Assembly: GCA_016218485.1 (NCBI GenBank)
Contig: JACRDY010000041.1
Location: 1-57,857 of the forward strand
DNA: 57,857 nt
Origin: Candidatus Falkowbacteria bacterium
Lineage (GTDB): Bacteria; Patescibacteriota; Patescibacteriia; JACRDY01
Direction of reading: 5' to 3'
Shown: piece after piece, positions 12,612 through 56,456 of the stretch
Position numbering within the stretch: position 1 is the stretch's first letter
How the letters are laid out: each line of letters opens with the position of its first letter
Notes under the pieces: model-generated
Database searches by the model: none
What the model was told of the DNA's origin: nothing
What the model saw: only the letters and a program-made list of their open reading frames with translations
Position numbers and translations under genes: made by a program

Positions 12612-13277
12612 TTGAAGGCGGACCATCAGGTAGCCAAAGCAGCTATTCCGCAAGACACTCGGATCTTTGGTATTCATGGTCCAGAAGAAGGTCTGACACT
12701 GAGAGAGGATGGTAGTGTGGCAAAACAAAAAATCGGGGGTGAAGCTCTCTGGAATTTTGGCGGGCCAGGACTCTGTTTACCCAACGCGGTTTTAGTTGAT
12801 CATCAGTCGGCGGTTGATTATTATTTTAACCAAACGGCTGATATTCATTCAATGGTTGGCCATGAGCGGCGACGAGTTGTTGAGCGGCTGACAGAACAAT
12901 ACGGCCAAGAGACTGTCAATATCTGGCTGGATCCGGATGACGACAATCCCTTGCGGTTTATGAATCATTCGTGTGATCCGAGTGCGCTCCGTTTCGGAGC
13001 CTTCGCGGTCTTTGCCAAAACTGATATTGCGCCCGGGCAGGCGGTAATGATTGATTATTCTACGCTGGAAGCTAATCCTGATTGGCAGATGGAATGCCAC
13101 TGCGGCGCCCTGAATTGCCGGGGGATTATTCGCAGTCTTCAATTTTTGCCGCCGGCGGACATTGATCAGTATTGGCTGAAGCTGCCCAATTTTATGAGAG
13201 CCATTTATCCAGCACCTTCCAGAATACCCCGTCAGCTTGCTGCGGGTTATTCTGGAAGGTGCTGGATAAATGGCTGA
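12612..13277 (+). CDS. SET-domain lysine methyltransferase with post-SET motif
   Basis: RFMNHSCDP, DIAPGQAVMIDY, post-SET CHCGALNCRG; TTG start uncertain; C-terminus supplied by a MITE. Confidence 0.82.
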   Translation: MKADHQVAKAAIPQDTRIFGIHGPEEGLTLREDGSVAKQKIGGEALWNFGGPGLCLPNAVLVDHQSAVDYYFNQTADIHSMVGHERRRVVERLTEQYGQETVNIWLDPDDDNPLRFMNHSCDPSALRFGAFAVFAKTDIAPGQAVMIDYSTLEANPDWQMECHCGALNCRGIIRSLQFLPPADIDQYWLKLPNFMRAIYPAPSRIPRQLAAGYSGRCWING

Positions 13278-13330
13278 GAGAGTATGTCTGTAGAGTGTAA
13301 TACCCCGACAGGAAGGTGCTGGATTTATTT
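13203..13330. mobile_element. MITE/REPIN-like element, ATCCAGCAC family, copy 1
   Basis: atttatccagcaccttccagaatacccc...ttattctggaaggtgctggataaat...gacaggaaggtgctggatttattt. Confidence 0.8.
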
Positions 13331-13421
13331 AGAGACGGCTCAACAGAAATATCATTCGCCGACTGATCAAAAGATTTTAACTAGATTAAAAAAGTCACCA
13401 AGCGGGGATTAAGCGAACAAT

Positions 13422-17478: not shown

Positions 17479-18498
17479 ATGCCCCAACGTTTCAGCCTTG
17501 ACGAACCAGACGAGATCCCGATCAGCGATGCTCTGGGGAGTTTGTTGTTGCCGGATCGGCGGCGCCGTCGTTTAACGATGGCCCTCTCCGCGCTGGCAGG
17601 GTTTATTGTCATCCTTGGGATTTGGCATTTTTTGCGTCAGATTAATTTACCAGCCGAAGAGCAGCTGGCCAAGTGGCAGGCCCAGTCCCAAGATGCCGGT
17701 CTGACTAATTTTAACCTAAACGCCGATCAGGATCTCTTGGCGCTCAATAGCGCCGACACCGACAGTGATGGCTTGAGCGACTACGAAGAAATATATATCT
17801 ATAGTACGAGCATTTACCTGGCCGACACCGACAGTGATGGCGAGAGTGACGCGGTTGAAACCCAGAATGGTACTGATCCGCTGTGTCCGAAAGGGGAGGA
17901 GTGTGTGGCGTCGCCGCCGACCACCACCACCACTGCCAGCGCCACTGACCATGGCACGCTCCTGGACGCGCTAGACAGCGGATCGTCTGACATTACCACG
18001 GACCAGAGTAACGGCAATATTCTGGCCGACTCCATCCGGAGCGTGATGATTGAGCAGGGGATATCAGCGGCGGAGCTGAATAAGTACACCAATGAGCAGC
18101 TGGTGGCGCTGTACCAACAGTATCAGAATCAGACCGCTGGCGGCACGAATACCGTGCCGGCAGCCACTACTGGTACCGGGGGCACGCCGTCGCCTGATGA
18201 GCTGCGAGCGCTGCTGCTGCAAGCCGGGTTCTCCCAGTCGCAGGTAGATAACTATAGCGACAAGCAGCTCCTGGAGGTGTATCAAAAAATCAGCACGGGG
18301 GAGGGTACGACGGGCGCCACCACCAACAGTAATACCAATATCAGCGCTGACACACAAAAACTCCGTGATTCCTTGAGCGCCATGACTGGAGCGCAGATTC
18401 GCCAGCTGCTGCAGCAGAGCGGTTTTAATAAGGATATTTTGGCTAAATATACGGATGAACAGCTCCGGGCGCTGTTGCTAGAGGTTTCAGCGCAGTAA
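17479..18498 (+). CDS. Membrane-anchored protein with DxDxDG calcium-binding motifs and three helical repeats
   Basis: TM segment; DTDSDGLSD, DTDSDGESD; repeats ending Y(T/S)x(E/K)QL. Confidence 0.75.
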   Translation: MPQRFSLDEPDEIPISDALGSLLLPDRRRRRLTMALSALAGFIVILGIWHFLRQINLPAEEQLAKWQAQSQDAGLTNFNLNADQDLLALNSADTDSDGLSDYEEIYIYSTSIYLADTDSDGESDAVETQNGTDPLCPKGEECVASPPTTTTTASATDHGTLLDALDSGSSDITTDQSNGNILADSIRSVMIEQGISAAELNKYTNEQLVALYQQYQNQTAGGTNTVPAATTGTGGTPSPDELRALLLQAGFSQSQVDNYSDKQLLEVYQKISTGEGTTGATTNSNTNISADTQKLRDSLSAMTGAQIRQLLQQSGFNKDILAKYTDEQLRALLLEVSAQ

Positions 18499-18536
18499 GG
18501 CAGGCAGGTTCTTTGCATATTTTAAATTTTTGTTTT

Positions 18537-18648
18537 ATAATAAATCCAGCACCTAAACCACAGAGGGGTGGCTTTTGTGGGCAATGTTCAGTATCCTATA
18601 CATCCCCGCATCAAGAGCAACGGGTAGGTTAAAAGGCGCTGGATAAAT
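18537..18648. mobile_element. ATCCAGCAC-family element, divergent copy in reverse orientation
   Basis: taaatccagcacct ... aggcgctggataaat. Confidence 0.55.
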
Positions 18649-18700
18649 CCACAACAACACATAATAATGGGCTGTCAGTTTTCTACAATCTACGGACACT

Positions 18701-21700
18701 ATGTTTGATAACCATCGTGGACAGTCAAGGTCTTTGAAGTCCCGAAAAATCGTGGGTGTTTTAGTATTGGTCAGTTTGTTGTTACCCGGTATACTTTTGT
18801 TTCTCCCTAAAACCGTCACTGCCCAAGAAGTAGTGACTGTAGGCGCTGATGTTCCAAGAGGTATTGAGAAGATTTTTACAACTGCGGCTAATGAAATAGA
18901 AAAATCCTTCCGTCTGGCTATTGCCAAATCAGCCATGATGTTTTCCCGGAAAGTGGCGCATAATTTGGCGGTTAAACTGGCGCGGCAGACTAAAGCCGGC
19001 ACTAAAGGTGGCAGTCTGGATTGGCGCGATATGGGACAAATTATGCAGGATGCGGGTTACGCCGCGTTTGGTGAAGCCGTGGGGACATTTTCCGAGAAAT
19101 TTTTTGGTGACGCGGCCTTTCTTTGTGATCCCAATCCGTACGTCCGCTTAGTCATCGGTTTAGCGCTACTTCAATCCATTGAGCCGACGCCTAAATGTGA
19201 CGGCCGGCAGGTGATTGAAAATTATAATGCCTTGAGCGCCGAGTGGAACTCGGGACAATTCCTGCGGCGTTTTTCCGCCAGCTTTGAGCCGACTCAGAGC
19301 GACCTTGGAACTTTTACCGAGGCATTGTCAAAAGTTGAACAACACAAAGCTGATGTCGTGCAGGCGAGAATTTTGGATAAACTATGGGGTAGCTCGCAGT
19401 GGTTTGACGTTTCTGACATTATCAGCGACCAGCGCATTAGCTCGCGTAACCAAATTGAAAAGTTCGTTAACGCTACCATGATTGAGGGTCCGGCCCAAGC
19501 CAATCAGTGGGAAGCCTTGTATTCATTGATGACCGGCGCGATCGCCTCGCCGTTTGTTTTTCAGTTTGCTGATTCGTTCGTGGCGGAAATGATGCAGCTG
19601 CACCTGTCCGGGCTGTTTGGCAACTACGACCTGTGTGACGCCAATATTCCGGGGCTGCCCAAGTGTAATCCTAAATCAGGACTGGACGGCAGCGAGTGGG
19701 GCAGCGGCACGCCGCGCGGGCAGTACTCCGAGCAGGAGATCCAGGAGCGGTTTGCCTCGCTGCTGACCCCCAAGATCGCCGTGGGCGGGGAGTATGATAT
19801 TGTCTCCGAGTTTGCCTCGTGTCCGGACGCGCAGCGTCCGAGCCAGAATACCTGTGTGATTGATCAGTCATTCTCTGAAGCCATCCTCAACCGCTATACC
19901 GTGCAGGAAGCGATTGACCAGGGCGTACTGCACGGTGACTGGAGTTTTGGCTACACGCAAGCCGGCGGGCTGTCGCAGCCGAGCTACGACAGCGGCTACC
20001 CGGCCAGCAGTATGAAGAAACTGCGCAAAGCGCGGATCATTCCGGTGGGCTGGGAGCTGGCGGCCGAGATCGTAGCCGGCGACACCACCTTGAGCGGGCC
20101 GGTAACGTTGCAGCAGATGGTCAACGCTTTTAACCAGACCGGTGACGATAAACAGTGCAATACCAATGACGTGAACGAGAGTCCGTTCTGCGGCTTAGTT
20201 GATCCTGACTGGGTGCTCAAGTCGCCGCAGCAGAAGTGTGAAGCCAATGCAGTCAGTCCGATGTTGGCCGAAGCGACTGTACGGCAAGACTGGTGCGCCG
20301 ACACTCGGAGCTGTATCAAAGAAAAAGCCGATGGTTCCTGCGAATCCTGGGGCTACTGCACCCGTGAAGCCAACACCTGGTGGTTCGGCGGGGAAGAGTG
20401 CCCGGCCGAGTACAACACTTGTCAAACATTTGTAAATAAAGATGATAATAGCCGCGGTACCTGGCTCAAGTCCAGCCTCAACTACCAGTCGTGCGACAGC
20501 ACTAACGCCGGCTGTACCTGGTACGCCCAAGCCCAGAATAGCGTCGGGGATTGGGTAGATACTCCCCAGAATCCGGCCAATGATTACAATATTTTAGCGC
20601 TCAATTCTATTTATTTTGATGGGGACGCGCAGCAGTGTAATGCGTCAGCCGCCGGTTGCAGTGAATTCATCAGGAGTTATTCTGGCTCGGGCACGAACTT
20701 GGTCAAGAACGGCAGTTTTGAAGACCACTACCGGATTACCAACAACCCGACGTACCCGGACGTGTTCTATGACTGGACAGTTAATCTTGGTACGGTAGAG
20801 ACGGTTGATGTCCAGTTTGGCGCCAGTGCAGTCGCCCTGAATAATGGCGGCAGTATCCGGCAGAGCGTGCCGGTGGGCTACGCTACCAGCCAGCGCACCT
20901 TTACATTATCGCTGTACGCCAAAGACTGCGCGGCTGATACGTCGGTGGTATTCGGGCCAGTCAGCCGTTCTCTCCAGGAGTTGGCCGGCGACGGCTATGA
21001 CCCGGCACAGCTGACGCAGTGGACAACGTATGCGTTAACCTACACTTTCCCGATCAACAGTAGTACGGACAGTATGGCGCTGACGCTAACACCGGGCAGC
21101 GGTTCTACGGCGTGCAAGTTTGACGGCCTGCAGGTGGAGGAAGGCGCGACCCCGACCTACTATGGTGAGTACGGCGCGGTTAATTTGGCCTACCTCAAGC
21201 AACCGCCGGCCTACCTCAACTGCAACGGCTCACCCAACCAGCCGGCAGACTGCAGCCAGTACGCGCCAGTCTGCGCCGCGGATCAAGTGGGCTGCCAGAA
21301 GTACACTGATTTGGCTGACAACACGGTGGTGCCCGGCATTATCAAGCCGGAAGACATCTGTCCGGCCGAGTGCAGCGGCTACAGTACGTACAAACAGGAC
21401 GCTTCAAATTTTTACCAAGAAAAGTTTCCGCTCTATTTCATCCCCTCTACCGCCGACTCCTGCCAGTGGGAGGACAGTGGCTGTGAATCGTTTACCAATT
21501 TGGACAGCGTGGCGGCCGGCGGCGAAGGCGTGGAGTCGTATTCGTTCCTCCGCCGCTGTCAGGCTCCGGCGCCGACCAGCGGCGACTGCCGTCCGTTCTA
21601 CACTTGGGAGGGCAGCGACAGTACCGGCTATCAGCTCAAACTCTATACCTTGAAGATGGATCCGGCGAGCGGAGCCGCGCCACTGACGATTCGTCAGTTC

Positions 21701-24700
21701 CCCGGTACGCCGCAGCCCGGCGACCCCTACAGCTGTCAGACGGTCTATGGCAAGAATCCGGGTGATCCGGGTTATGATCCGCAGCTGACCCCTGGCTGCA
21801 AGGAGTTTTATTTTGCTAACCCCACGAGCGGCCCGTTTACCCCCAGCTATACTATTTCGTACCGGCTGCTCGCGGACACCGTGCTCTGCACCGAGGACTG
21901 CCATCCGTACCGGCTGAACAGCGGCCGTGGGCTGTCACTCGTGCATTACACCAATAATACCGAGATTACCGGAGAGCAGATTACTGTCGGCGGCACCTAT
22001 GACGCCAGCCAGATTGCCTTTGTGGCGCCGGATGCTTCGTGCAGTCAGAGTGGCGGGCTGTACACCCAGTGTGTGCCGGGCAGTAGTGTGACTATTCCTG
22101 CCGCCAGCAGCTATTGCCGTAGCCAGGGTGGTAGTTTCTCTAATAATATTTGTTACAACCTGAACGACCAGAGCGTCTGTACTACCTCTGTCCTGCAGGG
22201 CGAGTGGCAGATTCTGTCCGCCGAGTGCCGTTACCTGGGCACGCCGCAGGAGAGTACGGCCTGCACGAGCCCGGGCTGCCAGACGTATCGGGGGAATTTC
22301 TCGGGCAATCGGTATTTGTTGTTTGATGATAGTTTTGAAGCCAATGCCAATGGTTGGCTGACGCCGACACCGCCGCCGGCCTATGTCATTGACGCGCCGG
22401 GCCAACTGGCCGGGGAAAGTTTCTCGGTCGCCGGGCACTCCTTCACACCCATCAGCACCGGCAGTATCACCCTGCCCAACCCGCCGGGCGGCACACTGCC
22501 GGCCATGAGCTTGGCGCGTTCGCTCATGGTGGACAGCGGTAATGGCCCTGAGTCGCTGGTGCGCCAGAACAAGGCCTACATCTTGTCATTCTGGGCCAAA
22601 TCGCAACAGAGCGGCGGTAACAACCTGCGGGTGATGTTTGACGGTGTGCTGTACACGAGCGACTCGCCTGACAATTACTTCAGCCATGACCGCAGCCTGG
22701 ATACTAACTGGCAGTACTACCGTTTCGGTCCGGTCTTCGTGGATTGGGCTGAGCCTAACCAGTACTTGCTGTTCAGCTCGCAGGATAATAAGAAGTTCTA
22801 TCTGGATAATGTCCGGCTGGAAGAGGTGACCGATATGGAATTCCTGGTCCGTGACAGCTGGGAGACGCCAGCGAGCTGCGACCAGAATCAGGCTGGCGCG
22901 CCGGCGCCGCAGTACATGCTCGGCTGCACCGCCTACCAAGACGTCAACAACCAGGTGCAGTACCTCAAGTCATTCTCCAACCTCTGTGAAGAGTCGGCGA
23001 TCGGCTGTGAGGCGGTGATTGATACGCGCAATTCAGCCGCGCCTCGCGAGGAAATTTATAATTATATTTGCAGTTTGAGCGCGGCTTGCGTGCCGGCGCC
23101 CGGTCAGACTACCTGCGACTGTCAGTATGCTGATAGCGATAGTAATACTTTCAGCGCCTGCGCCGTGGCGCCGGGGGAGACTGATTGTAAGTTCACCTTA
23201 GATCAGCCGGAGAGTCAGACGGTAAAGGAGAGCGTGCTCGGTCTGGTACCCGACACCGCGTTGGTGCCCGCTGATCGGTTTACCTACCTCGTCAATCGGC
23301 CGGAGTTTTCCTGCGCCGCGGCTGACAAGGGCTGTACCGCCATGGCGCGTCCACAGCTGGACGTGGACAATCAAGTGATAGATTACCTCAAACCAAACAG
23401 CCAGGACGAGAATGTCCTGTACCTGCGCAGCAATCCTGATCAGTATGCTACCGCTCTCTGTACCGCGCCGGCGCTCGGCTGTACCGCCTACGACGGCGGC
23501 GGTGAGCTGAACCCGGTCTATTTCCATGATCCGGCGGAGCGCGTCTGCGAGTATCGTGCGGAGTCCGGCACCGGCACTTTTGCCTGGTTTGAGAAGGGCA
23601 GCGATACTGCCTGTCCCGATCACGGCGACCCCACCAGCAGGTCCTATGAAGATCCGGAGCCGCTGTCGGCATCACTCTTTGGCTATACCACCTGGTCGCG
23701 CTCCTGCCCGGCCAACTACAGCTCCTGCACCCAGTTCATTGATCCGGCGGGCGCGCCCGGCAATAACATTTACTACTACCAGGATGATCAGAATCTTGAC
23801 CGGACGGCGTGTAATGGCCTGGCCTCCCAGAAGAAAGGCTGCGTCCTCTTTGAGAACGACAACAAAATTAAATGGGCGGCGGCGCAGCAGGCCAGCTGGA
23901 ATCCGGCTGATTGGTCGCCGGAGCTCACCTACAGCAGCGCGGCGACGTACGCCCGCAGTGAAGCCAGCAACAACGCGGCCGTCTCGCCGATTAACTGCAC
24001 CTCTAGCCAGCTGGCGCCCGATGAGCAGATTCTCTGTAACAGTGTCGGCGGCGGCAATGACGCCAATGATCTCTTGAGCGTGCGGCGCGATCGCGTCTGC
24101 GCCGAGTGGATTTCGTGTCAGCGCTCCTACCAGGTGTTTGACCCGCAGATCAATGCCTACCGGACCATTTGTTTGGATCTGGACCCCTGCACCAAGTTTG
24201 GGGCCAATTCCACCGAGTGTATTCAGTCGCGGCAGATCAGCGATCCGGGGGCCATTGCTTCAGACAGCTATTTGTCGCTGGATAAGTACCTCCAGCGCTC
24301 GCGCGACTGGAGCGGCTATGAGTATTCCGGCTATTCCATCCCGCATCTGTACCCGGTCTGGAGCCTGTCCGAGTATGACTACGGCACCTGCAGTGATAGT
24401 GATATTCTGTGTCTGTCCGACAGCGGCTGTCCGGGCACGCAGACCTGTGACTTTAGAGATGTCAATTATCGGGTCAGCCGCGTCAATGTTACCGGCAACA
24501 CCCTGACTGATCTCTGTCTCGGGAAATACGACGTTACCGGTGGTTTTAGTCAGATCGGCTGTCCGCTAGGGGCTATTTCGCGGGCCGGCAAGAGCTGCCG
24601 CGGCTACCCTGAGTCTGACGCGCCGTTTGCGGCCAATACTACCGTGGGGCCGTTCAGCGACGCCAACCATTGTCAGGCCTATGGTGATGCCGATTGCGAT

Positions 24701-27217
24701 TGCCATTATGAGAAGCTGGTGACGGGTAATGGCGTCCGCTCCTACTTTGATTATCCTGAAGCCACCAGTGGCGGATTGACGGTCGGCGTACCGCAACGGA
24801 TTTGTTCTATAGCTGATGATGCCCACCCCGGTATGCTCGGTAAAGCCTGCGGTGACGGATCAGGGCCGGATAATGACGACCGTGATTGTATTGATAAAGA
24901 ACATGAGCCCAATTTTCTAGCTCCTGAACAGGGCAGCTATATTGGCAACCCGTTTAATGACGGCACGCCGTCGGAGAATGACGTGTGTATTCGTCCGACT
25001 GGTCAGACCACATATCTCGGCTGGCGCGGGTATTGTCTGGAATATGACGACAGTATCCATATCAACGGCAGCACCAAAGACAAAGCCTGTCTGACCTGGA
25101 TGCCGATTGACCTGGCCTCGGGCGAGCCGGATATTTACAGCAACAAGCCGACAGCCGGGTTTGCTTTCGGCAGTTACTCCACTCCCTACGAGTACTGCGC
25201 CGCTAATTCCGGCAGCAGAGGAGCGCTGGGGTATCGTCTGGATGATCGTCCTGCCAATCATGTTCGGCAGGATCAGAGGGTCCCGGAGAGCGCTGATTTT
25301 CCCGACCCTGCCTATGATTATATTTTCGTGGACCTAAACTGTCCGTTCTTTTCCGCCTGTAATTTACCAGGCACCGCATATCAGAGCGGTAATCCGACCA
25401 TCTGGCTGGGGGATAAGGAATATGGAGGTTTAGGCGCGTTGTGCGGCGCTGACTTCTGCCGTGAAGGTTTTGAGATCAGTTCCGGCATCCGCCGCATACC
25501 GGCCACGCCCCGTGAACGCGAGATTAATCAGAATGATCTCAAATATATTGAAATTATTCCCAATAATACCGGTCCTACTGCCGGTGACAGATTACGGACG
25601 CCATTCCGTTTGACTAATGAACTAGGGCTGGGTGGTGATTGGAGCTGGGGTTGGTGCGGTTACTCCGGGTGGGTTGATCCGCAAAGCGGTCAAGAAAGTA
25701 GAAATTATCCTTCAGCTAATAATTGTACCGGCAGTAGCGGCACAAACTTCTTCTACGATGGTGAGTTTACTGGTAATAATATTGATGATATTTTCCGTAA
25801 CAAAGATCATGCTTGTGAAAATTTTGCTCCCTTTAACGCCTTTGCTATTCAGGCGCATTTTGACAACAACGGTTTCCTGGATTACTGGCAGACCGGGTAC
25901 TGTGACGGCAGTCAGGATGGCAGCTACCTTGACATCGCTGATGTTAAATTTATTATGAAGGAGACCTGTGAGGAAACTGTTCTGGTGGCTAAAAGTGAAA
26001 ATACCGACCCGCAGAATTTCGGCAATAGCTTCTTTAATACCAATCGGGTCTGGGCGGACGGCGGGTATGACTTTGGCGGTCAGCTGGGATTTGCTACCGC
26101 GGATCCGCCATTTGGTAAGTATGGAAACTCAACGATTAGCTTTGCCAAAAAAATAGAAATTGGCAATCAGCAGGATGAAACCACGCTCTTTGGCACCGGT
26201 TTTCGCTGTTTGAGCGGCGACTGTCGCACAGGGTCAACCCGTGGCAGCTGTATTAACAATGCGTTTGACGCCTATCCGGGTACGGGGTTGGATTTTGCCG
26301 ACTTGGATTCGTGCGATCCGAGTTTAGAATCAGATCCGAGCTGTGATAACGACAGCGATAATCCTCAAGTGTACTGCGCCGGCACCGCCGGAGTCTGGAA
26401 CAGCGGCAGCGGTTCGGACCGGCTGCAGCAGCTCTTCGTGGTCAGTTTTAATTACCATGTTTGGAGTAATGGCGATGATAAGTATAATGTTGATTTGGCT
26501 AAAACATGGGGGCTGCCAACCACGAGCGTGTCGGTACGCCGCAGTCAAGCGCAGGCGCCGAAAGTCTGGGCCGCCATCTTTGACAGCATCATTGGCGACT
26601 ATACCACGGGCGAGCCGGGCACGGTGGCGATTAATGGTCAGACCCGTCCCACGGACGTCTACTATGGGGACAGTATTACCACGGTGATGAGCTTCTACGC
26701 GGCCAATGACAATGGCGCCCAGATGCCGTTGCGGCGGTTCCTGGTTGACTGGGGTGATGGCGCGGGGGCGATTGAACTGCCGGCCGGGCTGGACACCACC
26801 ACCTCGTATGCCAACTACAAAGAGAAGTGCAATGATACGGCCGGTAACTTCGGGGATCAGCGTGATCAGTCCTGCGTGGAAGCTCACTTTGAAGCTAAGA
26901 ACGTCTATACCTGTACGGCCAGTCAGGGTAGCGCCTACCAGACGTCCTGCAGCGCGTACAGCGTGACCCTGCCGGGTGAGAGCGCTCCCTATACCGGTCC
27001 CTGCTGCGTTTACACTCCGCGGGTAACCGTAGTAGACAACTGGGGAGCCTGTGCCAATGGTTGCTCGGGCGGCGCCTGTTTGGTGCTTAGCGTGTCTGAT
27101 GAAGACGCCAGTAGCAGTAATGAATGCTACTACCGTTCCGGTACTAAATTACTCTTGAAGAAAGCCACTGCCACTTACCCCGGCAAAATCGTGATTATCC
27201 CCAGCAGTGAACTGTAA
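18701..27217 (+). CDS. Giant (2838 aa) secreted Cys-rich surface protein with CBM-like and PKD-like modules
   Basis: Signal/TM segment at the N-terminus; about 110 Cys by hand count; NLVKNGSFE...YTLSLYAK and LSFWAK...FYLDNVRLEE modules; C-terminal LVDWGDG. Confidence 0.8.
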   Translation: MFDNHRGQSRSLKSRKIVGVLVLVSLLLPGILLFLPKTVTAQEVVTVGADVPRGIEKIFTTAANEIEKSFRLAIAKSAMMFSRKVAHNLAVKLARQTKAGTKGGSLDWRDMGQIMQDAGYAAFGEAVGTFSEKFFGDAAFLCDPNPYVRLVIGLALLQSIEPTPKCDGRQVIENYNALSAEWNSGQFLRRFSASFEPTQSDLGTFTEALSKVEQHKADVVQARILDKLWGSSQWFDVSDIISDQRISSRNQIEKFVNATMIEGPAQANQWEALYSLMTGAIASPFVFQFADSFVAEMMQLHLSGLFGNYDLCDANIPGLPKCNPKSGLDGSEWGSGTPRGQYSEQEIQERFASLLTPKIAVGGEYDIVSEFASCPDAQRPSQNTCVIDQSFSEAILNRYTVQEAIDQGVLHGDWSFGYTQAGGLSQPSYDSGYPASSMKKLRKARIIPVGWELAAEIVAGDTTLSGPVTLQQMVNAFNQTGDDKQCNTNDVNESPFCGLVDPDWVLKSPQQKCEANAVSPMLAEATVRQDWCADTRSCIKEKADGSCESWGYCTREANTWWFGGEECPAEYNTCQTFVNKDDNSRGTWLKSSLNYQSCDSTNAGCTWYAQAQNSVGDWVDTPQNPANDYNILALNSIYFDGDAQQCNASAAGCSEFIRSYSGSGTNLVKNGSFEDHYRITNNPTYPDVFYDWTVNLGTVETVDVQFGASAVALNNGGSIRQSVPVGYATSQRTFTLSLYAKDCAADTSVVFGPVSRSLQELAGDGYDPAQLTQWTTYALTYTFPINSSTDSMALTLTPGSGSTACKFDGLQVEEGATPTYYGEYGAVNLAYLKQPPAYLNCNGSPNQPADCSQYAPVCAADQVGCQKYTDLADNTVVPGIIKPEDICPAECSGYSTYKQDASNFYQEKFPLYFIPSTADSCQWEDSGCESFTNLDSVAAGGEGVESYSFLRRCQAPAPTSGDCRPFYTWEGSDSTGYQLKLYTLKMDPASGAAPLTIRQFPGTPQPGDPYSCQTVYGKNPGDPGYDPQLTPGCKEFYFANPTSGPFTPSYTISYRLLADTVLCTEDCHPYRLNSGRGLSLVHYTNNTEITGEQITVGGTYDASQIAFVAPDASCSQSGGLYTQCVPGSSVTIPAASSYCRSQGGSFSNNICYNLNDQSVCTTSVLQGEWQILSAECRYLGTPQESTACTSPGCQTYRGNFSGNRYLLFDDSFEANANGWLTPTPPPAYVIDAPGQLAGESFSVAGHSFTPISTGSITLPNPPGGTLPAMSLARSLMVDSGNGPESLVRQNKAYILSFWAKSQQSGGNNLRVMFDGVLYTSDSPDNYFSHDRSLDTNWQYYRFGPVFVDWAEPNQYLLFSSQDNKKFYLDNVRLEEVTDMEFLVRDSWETPASCDQNQAGAPAPQYMLGCTAYQDVNNQVQYLKSFSNLCEESAIGCEAVIDTRNSAAPREEIYNYICSLSAACVPAPGQTTCDCQYADSDSNTFSACAVAPGETDCKFTLDQPESQTVKESVLGLVPDTALVPADRFTYLVNRPEFSCAAADKGCTAMARPQLDVDNQVIDYLKPNSQDENVLYLRSNPDQYATALCTAPALGCTAYDGGGELNPVYFHDPAERVCEYRAESGTGTFAWFEKGSDTACPDHGDPTSRSYEDPEPLSASLFGYTTWSRSCPANYSSCTQFIDPAGAPGNNIYYYQDDQNLDRTACNGLASQKKGCVLFENDNKIKWAAAQQASWNPADWSPELTYSSAATYARSEASNNAAVSPINCTSSQLAPDEQILCNSVGGGNDANDLLSVRRDRVCAEWISCQRSYQVFDPQINAYRTICLDLDPCTKFGANSTECIQSRQISDPGAIASDSYLSLDKYLQRSRDWSGYEYSGYSIPHLYPVWSLSEYDYGTCSDSDILCLSDSGCPGTQTCDFRDVNYRVSRVNVTGNTLTDLCLGKYDVTGGFSQIGCPLGAISRAGKSCRGYPESDAPFAANTTVGPFSDANHCQAYGDADCDCHYEKLVTGNGVRSYFDYPEATSGGLTVGVPQRICSIADDAHPGMLGKACGDGSGPDNDDRDCIDKEHEPNFLAPEQGSYIGNPFNDGTPSENDVCIRPTGQTTYLGWRGYCLEYDDSIHINGSTKDKACLTWMPIDLASGEPDIYSNKPTAGFAFGSYSTPYEYCAANSGSRGALGYRLDDRPANHVRQDQRVPESADFPDPAYDYIFVDLNCPFFSACNLPGTAYQSGNPTIWLGDKEYGGLGALCGADFCREGFEISSGIRRIPATPREREINQNDLKYIEIIPNNTGPTAGDRLRTPFRLTNELGLGGDWSWGWCGYSGWVDPQSGQESRNYPSANNCTGSSGTNFFYDGEFTGNNIDDIFRNKDHACENFAPFNAFAIQAHFDNNGFLDYWQTGYCDGSQDGSYLDIADVKFIMKETCEETVLVAKSENTDPQNFGNSFFNTNRVWADGGYDFGGQLGFATADPPFGKYGNSTISFAKKIEIGNQQDETTLFGTGFRCLSGDCRTGSTRGSCINNAFDAYPGTGLDFADLDSCDPSLESDPSCDNDSDNPQVYCAGTAGVWNSGSGSDRLQQLFVVSFNYHVWSNGDDKYNVDLAKTWGLPTTSVSVRRSQAQAPKVWAAIFDSIIGDYTTGEPGTVAINGQTRPTDVYYGDSITTVMSFYAANDNGAQMPLRRFLVDWGDGAGAIELPAGLDTTTSYANYKEKCNDTAGNFGDQRDQSCVEAHFEAKNVYTCTASQGSAYQTSCSAYSVTLPGESAPYTGPCCVYTPRVTVVDNWGACANGCSGGACLVLSVSDEDASSSNECYYRSGTKLLLKKATATYPGKIVIIPSSEL

Positions 27218-36291: not shown

Positions 36292-38181
36292 ATGGCTTTC
36301 TGGTCACGCAAAAAATCAAATACTGACAGTATCGCGCCGCCGCGGCTCAATGATGACGCCGAGAGTAAAGAGCTCTTGGAGGCGGAGTTGCACTACCGCG
36401 CCGGGGTGACGTCGGTCATTGACCTGATCGCGCCGGCCTCACTGCAGGTCAGCGCCACCTACCTGCGGCTGGGAACCAAGTTTGTCCGGACGCTCTTCGT
36501 CATCACCTATCCGCGCTATATTTCCGTGGGTTGGTTTTCACCGATCATTCATTTTAATAACGCGCTGGACATTTCCATGTTCTTCTATCCGGTTAAGTCA
36601 GCGGCGATTCTCAAAGACCTGAAAAAGCGCGCCGGTAACCTGGAGGCGGAAATCATGGCTGACAAAGACAAGGGCGCGCCGCGCGACCCGATCAAAGAAA
36701 CCGCGCTGCGTGATATTGAGAAACTGCGTGATGATCTGACGCAGGGCACGGAGCACTTTTTCCAGTACTCGCTCTATATCACGGTTTACGCCGACACGGA
36801 AGAGCAATTGGATGAGCTGACCGCTGACATTGAGGACATGTTCGGTTCACGCCTCGTCTACTCCAAGAAAGTACTGTACCAAGCCGAGCAGGGCTTTAAT
36901 TCCACGCTGCCGATGGGTAACGACGAGCTGGCGGTGCTCTTTAACATGAACACCTCGCCGGCCGCTTCATCTTTCCCCTTTATTTCTTTTGAGCTAACGA
37001 GCGACGACGGTATCATGTACGGCATTAACCGCCATAATAACAGCGTTATTCTGTTTGATAGATTTTCTCTGCAGAACGCCAACATGGTGGTCTTTGCCAC
37101 CTCCGGCGCCGGCAAGAGTTATGCCATCAAGCTGGAAATTCTGCGCAGCATGATGCTCGGGACTGACGTCATTGTCATTGATCCGGAAAAAGAGTATGTG
37201 CACCTGTCAGAAGCCGTGGGCGGCACCTACATCAATATTTCTCTGGCTTCGGACAGCAAGGTCAACCCGTTTGATCTGCCGCTGCCGACTGAGGAGGATG
37301 CCAAGACCGAGGATATTATCAGGAGCGCGGTTATCACCCTTAAAGGTCTCGTCAAACTGATGGTGGGCACATTAACATCTGAAGAAGATTCTATCGTGGA
37401 CCGGGCGCTCCTGGAAACGTACGCCAAGAAAGATATTACCGCTGAGTCAAACTTGAAGGATATTGAGCCGCCGATCATGCAGGATTTCCTGGAAGTGCTG
37501 GAAGGTATGGAGGGCGGGGCTGACCTAGTGCTCCGTCTGAAGAAATACACGGAGGGGACCTTTGCCGGCTTCGTCAATAATCCGACGAACGTGGACGTGA
37601 ATAATCAACTGGTGATCTTTTCCGTGCGTGATCTGGAAGATGAGCTGCGCCCCATTGCCATTTACAACCTCGTCAACTATATTTGGAATGTGGTCAGGTC
37701 TGAACGCAAGAAACGCCTGCTGGTGATTGATGAGGCCTGGTGGCTGATGCAGAATGAAGACTCGGCCAAGTTTATTTTCGCCCTGGTCAAGCGGTGCCGC
37801 AAATACTACCTCGGGGTCACCACCATTACCCAGGATGTCAACGATTTCCTCCAGTCAGAGTATGGCAAAGCTATTGTCAGTAACTCGGCGCTCCAGATTT
37901 TGATGAAACAGTCGCCGTCTTCCATTGATCAGGTGCAGAAAACTTTCCTCTTGACTGAAGGGGAAAAATACCTCTTGCTGGAGTGCGGCGTCGGGGAGGG
38001 GATATTCTTTGCCGGCAGCCGGCACGCCGCTATTCGCGTGGTAGCCTCGTACGCCGAAGATCAGCTGATTACCACTGACCCTAAACAGCTGCTGGAGATT
38101 GAAGCGGCCAAGCGCGATTTCGCCGAGCAGCGCGAGGCTGAACTGGCCGGTGCTTCGCCCGCCGAAGAGGGCAACGTTTAA
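36292..38181 (+). CDS. VirB4-like ATPase
   Basis: Walker A ATSGAGKS, VIVIDPEKEY, Walker B LLVIDEAW, RCRKYYLG, TQDVNDF. Confidence 0.9.
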   Translation: MAFWSRKKSNTDSIAPPRLNDDAESKELLEAELHYRAGVTSVIDLIAPASLQVSATYLRLGTKFVRTLFVITYPRYISVGWFSPIIHFNNALDISMFFYPVKSAAILKDLKKRAGNLEAEIMADKDKGAPRDPIKETALRDIEKLRDDLTQGTEHFFQYSLYITVYADTEEQLDELTADIEDMFGSRLVYSKKVLYQAEQGFNSTLPMGNDELAVLFNMNTSPAASSFPFISFELTSDDGIMYGINRHNNSVILFDRFSLQNANMVVFATSGAGKSYAIKLEILRSMMLGTDVIVIDPEKEYVHLSEAVGGTYINISLASDSKVNPFDLPLPTEEDAKTEDIIRSAVITLKGLVKLMVGTLTSEEDSIVDRALLETYAKKDITAESNLKDIEPPIMQDFLEVLEGMEGGADLVLRLKKYTEGTFAGFVNNPTNVDVNNQLVIFSVRDLEDELRPIAIYNLVNYIWNVVRSERKKRLLVIDEAWWLMQNEDSAKFIFALVKRCRKYYLGVTTITQDVNDFLQSEYGKAIVSNSALQILMKQSPSSIDQVQKTFLLTEGEKYLLLECGVGEGIFFAGSRHAAIRVVASYAEDQLITTDPKQLLEIEAAKRDFAEQREAELAGASPAEEGNV

Positions 38182-45027: not shown

Positions 45028-45155
45028 TTTTATCCAGCACATTCCTGTCGGGGTAGTACACGCCACAGGCATACTCTCTCAGCCATTCATCCAGCACCTT
45101 TCAGAATACCCCGTCAGCTTGCTGCGGGGTATTCTGAAAGGTGCTGGATTTATTT
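45028..45155. mobile_element. ATCCAGCAC-family element next to RAYT 2
   Basis: Halves match the 13203 and 56097 copies; hairpin gaataccccg...cggggtattc. Confidence 0.8.
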
Positions 45156-45202
45156 AAATAGTTTAGAATTATTTAATCTTTGGTGTGGTATGGTTTCGGG
45201 GT

Positions 45203-45901
45203 ATGGCGTATCCCCAAGATTATAATATCCACCGCCCGCCGCATCTCTACTCGGATGGTGAGATATATTTTATCACTTGCCGGACGGTGGATAAGAGGGA
45301 TTATTTTCATGGTTATGAAAATTTTATAGTCTCTAGTCTTAATTTAGCTAAAAATAAGTACCCTAGTAAATTATTTGCTTGGGCTATTCTTGGTAATCAT
45401 TACCATTTGTTATTAGAAGTGGTTAAAGGGAGAGACATTGCTAACATTATACGTTTTATTAATGGTCGTTCAGCGAAATTAATTCTTAATGAAATGAAAC
45501 GTGGGAGCGCACCCGGGAGCGACACGCCCTCTGGGCGTGTTACTGGGGTTCGGAACGACACAGCCTCCCCGGCCTCGTCAAGCGAAGCGGGGCGGGCTGG
45601 CGGTGTTATAGGTGGTATAGGTAAAACGATAACATGCCCAGAGGGCGTGTCGCTCCCCGGTAGACACTGCGTCTGGGAGCAGTATTTTGACCGATGTATT
45701 AGCACCGAGAAAGAATTTTACACCTATTTCAACTATATTAACCTTAACCCAATAAAGCACGGAAGAGTTAAAAACAAAAAGGAACTCCTAGAGTATCCCT
45801 TTTGCAGTTATCGGAATTGTGTAGATAAGTTCGGTCAGGCAGCAATGGATGATATCATTGCCCAGTATCCGGTGGAGGCGGGTGAGATGATGGGGGATTA
45901 A
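45203..45901 (+). CDS. REP-associated tyrosine transposase (RAYT) with an internal insertion
   Basis: YFITCRT, AWAILGNHYHLL (HUH), YFDRCI, NYINLNPIKHG, YPFCSY. Confidence 0.88.
   Translation: MAYPQDYNIHRPPHLYSDGEIYFITCRTVDKRDYFHGYENFIVSSLNLAKNKYPSKLFAWAILGNHYHLLLEVVKGRDIANIIRFINGRSAKLILNEMKRGSAPGSDTPSGRVTGVRNDTASPASSSEAGRAGGVIGGIGKTITCPEGVSLPGRHCVWEQYFDRCISTEKEFYTYFNYINLNPIKHGRVKNKKELLEYPFCSYRNCVDKFGQAAMDDIIAQYPVEAGEMMGD
45517..45655. repeat. Inverted REP doublet inside RAYT 2
   Basis: gagcgacacgccctctgggcgtgtta (45517-45542) and its near-perfect reverse complement (45630-45655). Confidence 0.85.
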
Positions 45902-56090: not shown

Positions 56091-56096
56091 AATTAG

Positions 56097-56207
56097 ATTT
56101 ATCCAGCACCTTCCAGAATACCCCATCAGCGTGCTCTCGGGGATGAATGGCTGAGAGAGTATTTCTGCGGGGTGTACTACCCCGACAGGAATGTGCTGGA
56201 TTTATTT
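56097..56207. mobile_element. ATCCAGCAC-family element
   Basis: atttatccagcaccttccagaatacccc ... taccccgacaggaatgtgctggatttattt. Confidence 0.8.
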
Positions 56208-56297
56208 ATGATTTATTGTTATACTATTTACTCCGACACGACGATGGAGATTGTCTAAATTATAGAGAATTTTTCCCTGAAAGTCAAAGGGTTTTAA

Positions 56298-56319
56298 GCT
56301 TGGGTTTTAAAACCCAAGC
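56298..56319. repeat. Perfect 22-bp palindrome, GGGTTTT/AAAACCC family
   Basis: gcttgggtttt|aaaacccaagc. Confidence 0.7.
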
Positions 56320-56343
56320 GAACGTAAGCGTTACATTTTAACT

Positions 56344-56454
56344 GTATCCAGCACCTTCCAGAATACCCCACAGCAAGCTGCGGGGATGAATGGCTTAATA
56401 TAAATCTTCCTGCGGGATGTATAATACCCCGACAGGAAGGTGCTGGATTTATTT
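56344..56454. mobile_element. ATCCAGCAC-family element
   Basis: gtatccagcaccttccagaatacccc ... taccccgacaggaaggtgctggatttattt; ends 2 nt before the PMM ATG. Confidence 0.8.
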
Positions 56455-56456
56455 CT

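What the first reader, a model, noticed from the sequence alone, without database searches (positions are those of the whole stretch)
18701..27217. 2838-aa secreted protein with about 110 cysteines and a mosaic composition
Seen: a signal segment, a helical N-terminal region, recurrent paired-Cys modules, two CBM-like beta-sandwiches and a C-terminal DWGDG PKD-like end. The segment from about 24.8 to 26.4 kb looks more AT-rich than the middle of the gene (by eye). Inference: a disulfide-stapled stalk with an exchangeable host-recognition domain, a costly gene for a reduced genome.
Basis: partly seen in the sequence, partly recalled or inferred. Interest (0 to 1): 0.65.

Follow-up and report, generated by a model that had tools for sequence, protein, structure and literature searches.

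The report
Giant disulfide-rich surface protein beside T4SS
This is a real 2,838-residue exported protein, probably held together by about 56 disulfide bonds, from an unnamed family found in hundreds of ultra-small (Patescibacteria) bacteria; it sits at the head of their type IV secretion genes and carries a fast-evolving block that may decide which host surface the cell grips.

Summary
ORF 18701-27217 (+) encodes 2,838 aa with 112 Cys, a Sec signal peptide, a helical N-terminus and recurrent C-x6-C modules. It has two CBM4/16/22-type beta-sandwiches and an AT-shifted segment (GC3 0.51 against 0.71). Only the "PKD-like" label for the C-terminus fails.

The protein belongs to an unnamed family of 2,300-3,800-aa proteins found in at least 379 species genomes whose named records carry ABY1-type names. 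Mature-chain Cys counts are even in 148 of 158 members (p = 1e-32), and the genome encodes VKOR and two DsbA-like proteins. Near-complete disulfide pairing is therefore well supported.

Gene order is conserved: KsgA, then a TSP3 membrane protein (68 of 73 loci), then the giant. T4SS-like genes (VirB6-like, PrgI, VirB4) follow in 22 of 28 loci.

Residues 2156-2572 are the family's fastest-evolving block, and in the window they match only one other protein among 1.84 billion. Its AT shift is family-wide (25 of 27 orthologues), and GC3 tracks conservation along the gene (rho 0.61). So it marks low constraint, not foreign DNA, and cassette exchange is not demonstrated.

Best reading (0.5): a disulfide-braced, glycan-binding host-contact protein coupled to the Patescibacteria T4SS. 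I found no published description, but this scan has met the family several times.

The parts
17479..18498 (+). Partner gene: 339-aa single-pass membrane protein with two TSP3-type Ca-binding repeats, a Cys loop and three ~35-aa helical repeats
   Evidence: Pfam TSP3_bac E 1.6e-6 and a single TM at aa 34-52. A TSP3-like gene lies directly upstream of the giant in 68 of 73 loci. A second TSP3-giant pair lies on contig C61.
18512..18541 (+). Sigma-70-like promoter match upstream of the giant gene
   Evidence: TTTGCA-18-TATAAT, 10 of 12 positions. This is a consensus match only.
18701..27217 (+). Giant gene, 2,838 aa, 112 Cys
   Evidence: It has 130 homologues among 5.8 billion protein clusters and 379 species genomes with a relative.
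18701..18823 (+). Sec-type signal peptide (aa 1-41, TVTA|Q)
   Evidence: Hydrophobic core at aa 17-35. The same layout occurs in all 52 full-length relatives.
18824..19720 (+). N-terminal helical region (aa 42-340), weakly conserved, with GC3 about 0.51 over the first 300 codons
   Evidence: AF2 helices at low pLDDT. DUF4141 (which an earlier scan note, relates to VirB5) matches only 2 of 52 members, best E 0.003.
19784..20260 (+). Highly conserved alpha/beta domain (aa ~362-520; LRKARIIPVGWELAAE and LIDPNWVLK motifs), fold unassigned
   Evidence: pLDDT 91-96. Invariant R442, R445, E452, D501, W504, C374 and C385. No Pfam or PDB match.
20678..21145 (+). CBM4/16/22-type beta-sandwich 1 (aa ~660-815)
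22292..22738 (+). CBM4/22-type beta-sandwich 2 (aa ~1198-1346)
   Evidence: Family profile against 4xup E 2.4e-12 and against 1gui E 7.7e-10.
22877..25165 (+). Cys-rich conserved core (aa 1393-2155) with many invariant Cys and C-x6-C hairpin modules
   Evidence: The part of this core that was modelled (aa 1640-2155) is beta-rich.
25166..26416 (+). Fast-evolving, AT-shifted block (aa 2156-2572). A small conserved skeleton lies around C2423. The first ~110 aa have no detectable relative at all.
   Evidence: AF2 pLDDT is mostly below 50.
26417..27214 (+). Conserved C-terminal Cys-containing beta domain (aa 2573-2838; VDWGDG and DNWG.C motifs)
   Evidence: pLDDT about 90 for aa ~2609-2790. All-pairs BLAST hits across the family. 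No PDB or BFVD match at E <= 1e-3. PKD membership not met.
27224..30091 (+). Extended VirB6/TrbL-like polytopic membrane protein (955 aa). Its start lies 6 nt after the giant's stop codon.
   Evidence: Pfam TrbL E 3.7e-5, just below the cut-off (24.0 against 25.9 bits). About 8 TM segments, then a charged tail. No terminator-like site in the gap.
30126..31562 (+). 478-aa unknown protein, often conserved downstream of the VirB6-like gene
33252..38181 (+). Rest of the T4SS-like cluster: 489-aa unknown, PrgI (VirB3-like), TraC-like, and VirB4-type ATPase (36292-38181)
   Evidence: Pfam PrgI E 2.7e-8 and P-loop_TraG E 1.3e-27. Found downstream of the giant in 22 of 28 loci that have at least 9 kb of flank.

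Best explanation
The gene encodes a Sec-exported giant extracellular protein that is folded oxidatively outside the cytoplasm into a disulfide-braced multi-domain body of about 56 disulfides.

Its layout is as follows:
- a helical N-terminal region;
- a strictly conserved alpha/beta domain of unknown fold;
- runs of small Cys-stapled beta modules, interrupted by two CBM4/16/22-type (glycan-binding type) beta-sandwiches;
- a fast-evolving sub-terminal block;
- a conserved C-terminal beta domain.

It has no membrane or wall anchor of its own. I infer that it is held at the cell surface by the single-pass TSP3/Ca-binding membrane protein encoded just upstream, and/or by the extended VirB6-like protein with which it appears co-transcribed.

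I also infer that it serves as the host-contact (adhesin or lectin-like) part of the chromosomal monoderm-type T4SS of these episymbiotic bacteria, with the fast-evolving block tuning specificity.

Shown here: export signal, disulfide signature, CBM-type folds, family-wide synteny, and the hypervariability and AT shift of the block.

Inferred only: surface retention, binding to a host glycan, physical coupling to the T4SS, and a role in specificity.
For: Export. A signal peptide is present in all 52 full-length relatives, with no other strong TM segment.

Disulfides.
- Even Cys counts in 148 of 158 members, p = 1.2e-32.
- Cys columns are 85-100% conserved at about 27% overall identity, and lineage-specific Cys appear as neighbouring pairs with matching frequencies, such as 312/322, 1114/1124 and 2214/2220.
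- The genome has VKOR (E 1.5e-20) and two membrane-anchored DsbA-like proteins.

Glycan-binding-type folds.

Linkage.
- A TSP3 gene lies directly upstream in 68 of 73 loci, and KsgA in 55 of 67.
- T4SS-like genes lie downstream on the same strand in 22 of 28 loci.
- There is a 6-nt gap and no terminator before the VirB6-like gene.
- The same genome holds a second TSP3-giant pair and a Cys-rich giant fused to a T4SS-pilin anchor.

Fast-evolving block.
- Pairs that are 55-62% identical in both flanks are only 26-37% identical in the block.
- In the window the block matches one protein among 1.84 billion representatives.

Literature. The 2025 survey of Patescibacteria T4SS found no PrgB-type adhesin and reports ksgA, comF and recG near ABY1 T4SS loci, as seen here (PMC12102498).
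Against: - There is no direct evidence of a physical or functional link to the T4SS. The upstream neighbours are housekeeping genes, so part of the synteny may be a frozen chromosomal neighbourhood.
- In 6 of 28 loci no T4SS-like gene was detected within about 10 kb, and VirB6-like is immediately adjacent in only 6 of 46 loci.
- No anchor motif was found: no LPXTG and no C-terminal TM.
- Ligand-binding residues of the CBMs were not examined.
- Most of the protein, including the conserved alpha/beta domain and the C-terminal domain, has no recognisable fold relative. An enzymatic or structural role therefore cannot be excluded.
- Fast evolution of the block could reflect relaxed constraint rather than diversifying selection.
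Confidence: 0.5

Rival explanations
1. It is a general surface adhesin or envelope protein of ABY1 bacteria, paired with the TSP3 protein but functionally independent of the T4SS. The linkage would reflect a conserved chromosomal neighbourhood (RF-epimerase-Sua5-KsgA-...).
For: The tightest linkage is to the TSP3 gene and to housekeeping KsgA. Unrelated genes, up to about 8 kb of them, separate the giant from the VirB6-like gene in many loci, and 6 of 28 loci show no T4SS gene nearby. A second TSP3-giant pair lies on another contig; its T4SS context could not be assessed, because the contig holds only ~6.9 kb and the paralogue runs off its end.
Against: The giants in these loci are only about 27% identical, yet T4SS genes still follow on the same strand in 22 of 28. 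In the window's clade the giant and the VirB6-like gene are 6-140 nt apart.
Confidence: 0.25
2. It is a structural wall-spanning or S-layer-like scaffold of the cell envelope rather than a recognition protein.
For: It is very large, disulfide-braced and beta-rich. The best (weak) fold hit of the C-terminal half is the Deinococcus HPI S-layer protein, E 0.026, probability 0.51.
Against: The fold match is not significant. The two lectin-type modules and a hypervariable block suit recognition better than a lattice. No self-assembly features were tested.
Confidence: 0.1
3. It is a secreted glycan- or wall-processing enzyme. The conserved alpha/beta domain (aa 362-520) would be an unrecognised catalytic domain that the CBMs target to a polysaccharide.
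For: CBM4/16/22 modules normally accompany glycoside hydrolases. The aa 362-520 domain has invariant Arg, Glu and Asp residues and very high model confidence.
Against: No Pfam or PDB profile match was found for that domain. About 2,000 further residues have no enzymatic signature.
Confidence: 0.08
4. The aa 2156-2572 block is a cassette swapped between lineages by recombination or gene transfer, or diversified by a retroelement (DGR).
For: There is a discontinuity among the closest relatives. The window and L086 share one cassette type (E 6e-36) and L087 and L001 share another (E 1e-16), with no cross-similarity although the cores are 42-56% identical. BLAST alignments break sharply at aa 2153-2159 in most relatives.
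Against: L001 is the outgroup in every partition and the trio is unresolved (AU p > 0.18), so one change on a window+L086 stem explains the pattern. Elsewhere cassettes are homologous along their length and simply faster evolving. The AT shift occurs in 25 of 27 orthologues, and GC3 tracks conservation along the gene, rho 0.61. No template-repeat copy of the gene exists in the window or the genome.
Confidence: 0.15

Closest known systems
PrgB (aggregation substance) and other surface adhesins of monoderm conjugative T4SS (MPF-FATA class)
   Same: It is a large Sec-exported surface protein encoded with a monoderm-type T4SS, presumed to mediate cell-cell contact. The Patescibacteria T4SS is MPF-FATA-related (PMC12102498).
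   Different: There is no sequence or fold similarity and no LPXTG anchor. It is 2-3 times larger, has about 56 disulfides and carries CBM-type modules. The 2025 survey detected no PrgB homologue in Patescibacteria.
Patescibacteria chromosomal T4SS locus (Quinonero-Coronel et al. 2025, PMC12102498)
   Same: The window carries VirB4, PrgI/VirB3 and VirB6-like genes, with ksgA, comF and recG nearby, as described for class ABY1.
   Different: My term searches of that paper found no mention of this giant family, and genes without Pfam or NCBIfam hits are left unannotated there.
CBM4 / CBM16 / CBM22 carbohydrate-binding modules (Pfam CBM_4_9)
   Same: Two modules match by family profile and one also by fold.
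   Different: Here they are embedded in a non-enzymatic, Cys-rich giant. Their ligand is unknown.
Giant surface proteins of other CPR bacteria (Vampirococcus lugosii, PMC8080830; FhaB-domain giants of Patescibacterium danicum, PMC11809585)
   Same: These are very large membrane or surface proteins in reduced episymbiont genomes, proposed to recognise and bind the host and thought to evolve rapidly.
   Different: The domain content differs (WD40, PKD, saposin or FhaB there). In Patescibacterium the authors found no full-length homologues, whereas this family is colinear across at least 379 species and is Cys-rich.
VirB5 / DUF4141-type T4SS tip proteins
   Same: A helical, Sec-exported N-terminus encoded with the T4SS. 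This is a lead taken from an earlier scan note.
   Different: Only 2 of 52 members hit DUF4141 (best E 0.003), the window's protein does not, and there is no PDB match.

Membership tests
CBM_4_9-type carbohydrate-binding module (CBM4/16/22) | Sequence-profile match to the family | tested here: met
   Module 1: family profile against 2zew E 1.3e-6. The single sequence against Pfam is only E 0.004, below the cut-off. Module 2: profile against 4xup E 2.4e-12. Many relatives carry precomputed PF02018.
CBM_4_9-type carbohydrate-binding module (CBM4/16/22) | Beta-jelly-roll fold superposable on solved CBMs | tested here: met
   Module 1: Foldseek 2zey TM 0.74, rmsd 2.8-3.1 A, probability 1.00. Module 2 was not modelled.
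CBM_4_9-type carbohydrate-binding module (CBM4/16/22) | Conserved aromatic or polar ligand cleft and measurable glycan binding | not tested
   No coordinates were available to me. Binding needs glycan arrays.
PKD domain | Pfam PKD/PKD_4 match at or above the cut-off | tested here: not met
   0 hits for the window. 1 of 49 relatives hits at E 0.0046. The DWGDG motif is present. No significant fold match.
PrgB-type / LPXTG-anchored T4SS adhesin | C-terminal LPXTG sorting signal with a hydrophobic tail | tested here: not met
   No LPXTG-like motif and no C-terminal TM segment.
PrgB-type / LPXTG-anchored T4SS adhesin | Homology to PrgB adhesin domains | tested here: not met
   No such Pfam or PDB hits. 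The literature reports none in the phylum.
Patescibacteria MPF-FATA-like T4SS locus (context) | VirB4 ATPase plus VirB3/PrgI and VirB6-like genes in one same-strand cluster | tested here: met
   P-loop_TraG E 1.3e-27, PrgI E 2.7e-8, and TrbL E 3.7e-5 (just below the cut-off).
VirB5 / DUF4141 T4SS tip protein | Profile match of the N-terminal helical region | tested here: inconclusive
   2 of 52 members match, best E 0.003. The window's protein has no hit, and the PDB profile search found nothing.
DGR (diversity-generating retroelement) target protein | Template repeat nearly identical to the variable region, plus a reverse transcriptase nearby | tested here: not met
   No repeat of the gene in the window or in the 981-kb assembly.
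Polymorphic toxin / CDI-type protein | Variable extreme C-terminal toxin domain followed by an immunity gene | tested here: not met
   The last ~265 aa are conserved in all pairs. The variable block is internal, and the next gene is the VirB6-like gene.
Disulfide-rich extracytoplasmic protein | Export signal, even and pairwise-conserved Cys, and an oxidative folding system in the genome | tested here: met
   Actual bond formation cannot be tested with these tools.

The most novel reading that the evidence does not exclude
The TSP3 membrane protein, the giant and the extended VirB6-like protein together form the missing extracellular half of the Patescibacteria T4SS. On this reading the assembly is a Ca-dependent, disulfide-braced, lectin-bearing structure that replaces the VirB5/pilus-tip or PrgB function. 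Its fast-evolving aa 2156-2572 block would be the determinant of host range in ABY1-class episymbionts.
Probability: 0.25. Interest if true: 0.8.

Novelty: new variant of a known kind. Interest (0 to 1): 0.55.

Why it matters
T4SS genes are essential for epibiotic growth in the one Patescibacteria class where this was tested (Saccharimonadia). However, the system lacks a relaxase and any recognised adhesin, so how it touches the host is open (PMC12102498).

A colinear giant family that sits at the head of that locus in hundreds of species gives a concrete candidate. It is exported, disulfide-braced and carries lectin-type modules.

It also gives a defined 400-residue block to test for host specificity. 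The parity test offers a simple way to recognise fully disulfide-bonded giant proteins from sequence alone.

Tried and rejected
- Foreign origin of the AT-rich block: rejected as the main explanation. The shift is family-wide (25 of 27 orthologues, p = 1e-5), and GC3 follows conservation along the gene.
- DGR diversification: no template repeat found.
- Cassette made of known domains: Pfam found nothing in the C-terminal parts of 9 diverse relatives, nor in the window.
- Recombination tests on region trees: the trio is unresolved (AU p > 0.18), so nothing can be concluded.
- VirB5-like N-terminus: inconclusive.
- PKD label: not met.
- Fold searches of the C-terminal half against PDB and BFVD: no match at E <= 1e-3.
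- The N-half fold search was dominated by the CBM, so the conserved aa 362-520 domain could not be queried alone. All structure and fold jobs are now used.
- The search for related loci with the 34-sequence alignment failed because no conserved stretch was found. A 10-sequence alignment worked.
Because of this I did three things differently:
  - VKOR and DsbA were found by motif and TM screening of ORFs followed by Pfam.
  - Co-occurrence with T4SS across genomes could not be measured.
  - Population polymorphism and expression could not be examined.
- Two literature searches for a description of the family found none.
Full report
**What is there**

ORF 18701-27217 (+) is the longest in the window. 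It translates without stops into 2,838 aa with 112 Cys (3.9%). The genome's crude set of ORFs of 150 aa or more averages about 1.3% Cys. The window is contig C27 of a 981-kb, 69-contig assembly with 50.8% GC. The gene takes up 0.87% of that assembly.

**Export**

The N-terminus has a basic n-region, a hydrophobic core (aa 17-35) and TVTA|Q. All 52 full-length relatives I assembled show the same layout: n-region, h-region and A-x-A|Q. None has a further strong hydrophobic segment. There is no LPXTG-like motif and no C-terminal anchor. The protein is therefore a Sec substrate that ends up outside the membrane without an anchor of its own.

**Family**

A word-indexed search of 5.8 billion protein clusters found 130 relatives, of which the 120 listed are 1,854-3,595 aa long. 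The few that carry names are 'hypothetical' or named after a single domain. The named ones come from Uhr-, Falkow-, Magasanik-, Komeili- and Buchananbacteria and from 'Patescibacteria group' MAGs.

A scan of one genome per species found 379 species that encode a relative. The nearest relative is only 44% identical, so no close strain is available.

The named lineages all carry ABY1-type names. The window also shows the ksgA, comF and recG context that the literature describes for ABY1 T4SS loci.

**Disulfides**

- In a 121-sequence alignment at about 27% mean identity, most Cys columns are 85-100% conserved.
- The lineage-specific Cys of the window appear as neighbouring pairs with matching frequencies: 312/322, 743/805, 1114/1124, 1463/1474, 2214/2220 and 2319/2342.
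- After removal of the signal peptide, the Cys count is even in 148 of 158 family members, over a range of about 80-154 Cys (binomial p = 1.2e-32). This is what one expects if Cys are gained and lost in bonded pairs.
I therefore screened the genome's ORFs by CxxC motif and TM count and confirmed candidates with Pfam. This gave one VKOR (C40:4913-5320, E 1.5e-20) and two membrane-anchored DsbA/Thioredoxin_4 proteins (C47:829-1566 and C55:12768-13523).
- The recurrent module is 'Y[LF]..C-x4-[AS]-G-C-x2-[FY]'. There are 11 C-x6-C motifs against 4.4 in shuffles, with a shuffle maximum of 13, so this count alone is only suggestive.

**Domains**

| Region (aa) | Finding |
|---|---|
| 42-360 | Helical, low confidence (pLDDT 30-60) |
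| ~362-520 | Very confident alpha/beta domain (pLDDT 91-96) with invariant R442, R445, E452, D501, W504; no Pfam or PDB-profile match |
| ~660-815 | CBM16/CBM4-type jelly roll (profile E 1.3e-6; Foldseek TM 0.74) |
| ~1198-1346 | CBM22/CBM4 match by family profile (E 2.4e-12) |
| 2156-2572 | Mostly below pLDDT 50 |
| ~2609-2790 | Confident beta domain (pLDDT about 90) |

The N-half model (aa 42-1200, 52-sequence alignment) has mean pLDDT 70. The C-half model (aa 1640-2838) has mean pLDDT 63 and pTM 0.65.

Neither PDB nor BFVD holds a fold match at E <= 1e-3 for the C-terminal half. The best, non-significant hits are Ig-like sandwiches of S-layer, fimbrial and pilin proteins. The 'PKD-like' label fails: 1 of 49 members hits PKD_4 at E 0.0046. 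The VDWGDG motif is nevertheless conserved across the family.

**Context**

The upstream gene (17479-18498) encodes a single-pass membrane protein. It has two TSP3 Ca-binding repeats and three helical repeats.

The giant's stop codon is 6 nt from the start of a 955-aa VirB6/TrbL-like polytopic protein, with no terminator-like site between them. A promoter-like site lies at 18512-18541. Further downstream come a 478-aa unknown, MetK, a 489-aa unknown, PrgI (VirB3-like), a TraC-like protein and VirB4, followed by ComF-like and RecG genes.

Across the fetched loci:
- a TSP3-like gene lies directly upstream of the giant in 68 of 73 eligible loci;
- KsgA lies upstream in 55 of 67;
- among 28 loci with at least 9 kb of downstream DNA, 22 carry T4SS-like genes on the same strand;
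- VirB6-like is immediately adjacent in only 6 of 46.

The same genome also holds two related features. One is a second, truncated paralogue (C61, E 4e-48) preceded by its own TSP3 gene. The other is a different 3,258-aa protein with 163 Cys whose N-terminus is a T4SS-pilin domain.

**The mosaic block**

BLAST of the window protein against 120 relatives is colinear over aa 1-2155 and aa ~2575-2835. Residues ~2160-2570 match only P0002. A full phmmer pass over 1.84 billion representatives with aa 2140-2590 again finds only P0002 (E 6e-32, from aa ~2275 onward). The first ~110 residues of the block therefore have no known relative.

Across the family the block is 350-580 aa long. It is homologous where it can be compared, but it evolves much faster than its flanks. 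Pairs that are 55-62% identical in both flanks are only 26-37% identical in the block. Only 38% of block pairs are detectable at all, against 100% for the core and the C-terminus. Pfam finds no known domain in the corresponding regions of nine diverse relatives.

**Composition**

- GC3 is 0.511 in the block against 0.714 in aa 301-2000. The genome mean is 0.62 with sd 0.08.
- A permutation that shuffles synonymous codons within the gene expects 0.622 +/- 0.021, giving z = -5.2.
- This is not peculiar to the window. The block has lower GC3 than the core in 25 of 27 orthologues, mean -0.068, Wilcoxon p = 1e-5. Those genomes range in GC3 from 0.27 to 0.95.
- Along the window gene, GC3 correlates with protein conservation. 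Spearman rho is 0.61 (p = 7e-7), and still 0.44 when the block is excluded.
- The weakly conserved first 300 codons are also AT-shifted.

The 'mosaic composition' is therefore a correlate of low constraint, not a sign of imported DNA. The mechanism is open. Possibilities include codon selection at conserved sites or GC-biased repair where homologous recombination is possible.

**Exchange or divergence?**

Among the four closest proteins, the window and L086 share one block type (E 6e-36) and L087 and L001 share another (E 1e-16). There is no cross-similarity between the two types.

L001 is the outgroup in all four region trees (support 93-100). The relationship among the window, L086 and L087 is unresolved in every partition (AU p > 0.18). 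One replacement, or one burst of divergence, on a window+L086 stem would explain the pattern.

No DGR-type template repeat exists in the window or the genome. Exchange is therefore possible but not shown.

**Interpretation**

The most economical reading is a disulfide-braced surface protein that carries lectin-type modules. It would be retained by its TSP3 and/or VirB6-like partners and would act as the host-contact component of the Patescibacteria T4SS.

That system is related to monoderm conjugation machines, usually lacks a relaxase, and had no adhesin detected in the 2025 survey (PMC12102498). Giant surface proteins have been proposed as host-recognition factors in other CPR bacteria (PMC8080830, PMC11809585). 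I found no description of this family in four literature searches.

After I had formed this reading, the scan's own notes showed at least eight earlier follow-ups on relatives in other genomes with the same T4SS-partner interpretation. These are AI notes and not independent evidence. One lead from them, a VirB5-like N-terminus, I tested and found inconclusive.

- the Cys parity test;
- VKOR and DsbA in the genome;
- delimitation of the fast-evolving block;
- the finding that the AT shift is family-wide and tracks constraint;
- the second TSP3-giant pair in the same genome.

**Limits**

- There were no model coordinates, so disulfide geometry and overall shape could not be checked.
- The two structure jobs left aa 1200-1640 unmodelled.
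- Binding, anchoring and coupling to the T4SS are inferences.

Noticed in passing
genome contig C3:8656-18429 (-), outside the window: A second giant Cys-rich protein (3,258 aa, 163 Cys, 5.0%). Its N-terminus is a signal peptide plus a T4SS_pilin (VirB2/TrbC-like) hairpin (Pfam E 1.9e-8), followed by DUF4215 Cys-rich repeats and IPT/TIG domains. It shows no BLAST similarity to the window's giant. A pilin anchor fused to a 3,000-aa ectodomain is unusual.
   Followed up: partly
genome contig C61:22-1842 (-) and the gene just upstream of it (about 1.9-2.6 kb): A paralogue of the window's giant (26% identity over aa 2-619, E 4e-48) that runs off the contig end. It is preceded by its own TSP3_bac membrane protein (E 3.8e-7). 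The TSP3-giant pair is therefore duplicated in this genome, and the rest of the paralogue is missing from the assembly.
   Followed up: partly
genome contigs C40:4913-5320 (+), C47:829-1566 (-), C55:12768-13523 (-): A 135-aa stand-alone VKOR and two membrane-anchored DsbA/Thioredoxin_4 proteins with a CPFC motif. Together they form an extracytoplasmic disulfide-forming system in a genome of about 1 Mb.
   Followed up: partly
genome contig C55:7140-7745 (+): A 201-aa T4SS_pilin protein (E 1.7e-10) with a Cys-rich pre-pilin region (CWACGDCNVC).
   Followed up: no
window 18701-19600 and L087: The weakly conserved N-terminal region (aa 42-340) is 68% identical to L087, while the rest of the gene is about 50% identical. 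The AU test does not reach significance (p 0.49). This could be a local recombination tract or rate variation.
   Followed up: partly
window 27224-30091: The VirB6-like protein has about 8 TM segments in its first ~360 aa, then a ~600-aa Lys/Glu/Ala-rich tail. Its start codon is 6 nt after the giant's stop codon.
   Followed up: no
window 18537-18700, 13199-13331, 45032-45158, 56093-56455: A family of hairpin-containing intergenic repeats (ATCCAGCACCTTCC...). One related copy lies in the 202-nt gap just upstream of the giant gene, overlapping the promoter-like site. Two IS200/Y1-type transposase-like genes are nearby (45185-45901).
   Followed up: no
loci L008, L011, L027 and others: Many relatives sit in TPA assemblies labelled 'uncultured Gammaproteobacteria', 'Tangfeifania', 'Kapaibacterium' or 'Methylomirabilis'. 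Their gene order is typical of Patescibacteria, so these organism labels look wrong.
   Followed up: no
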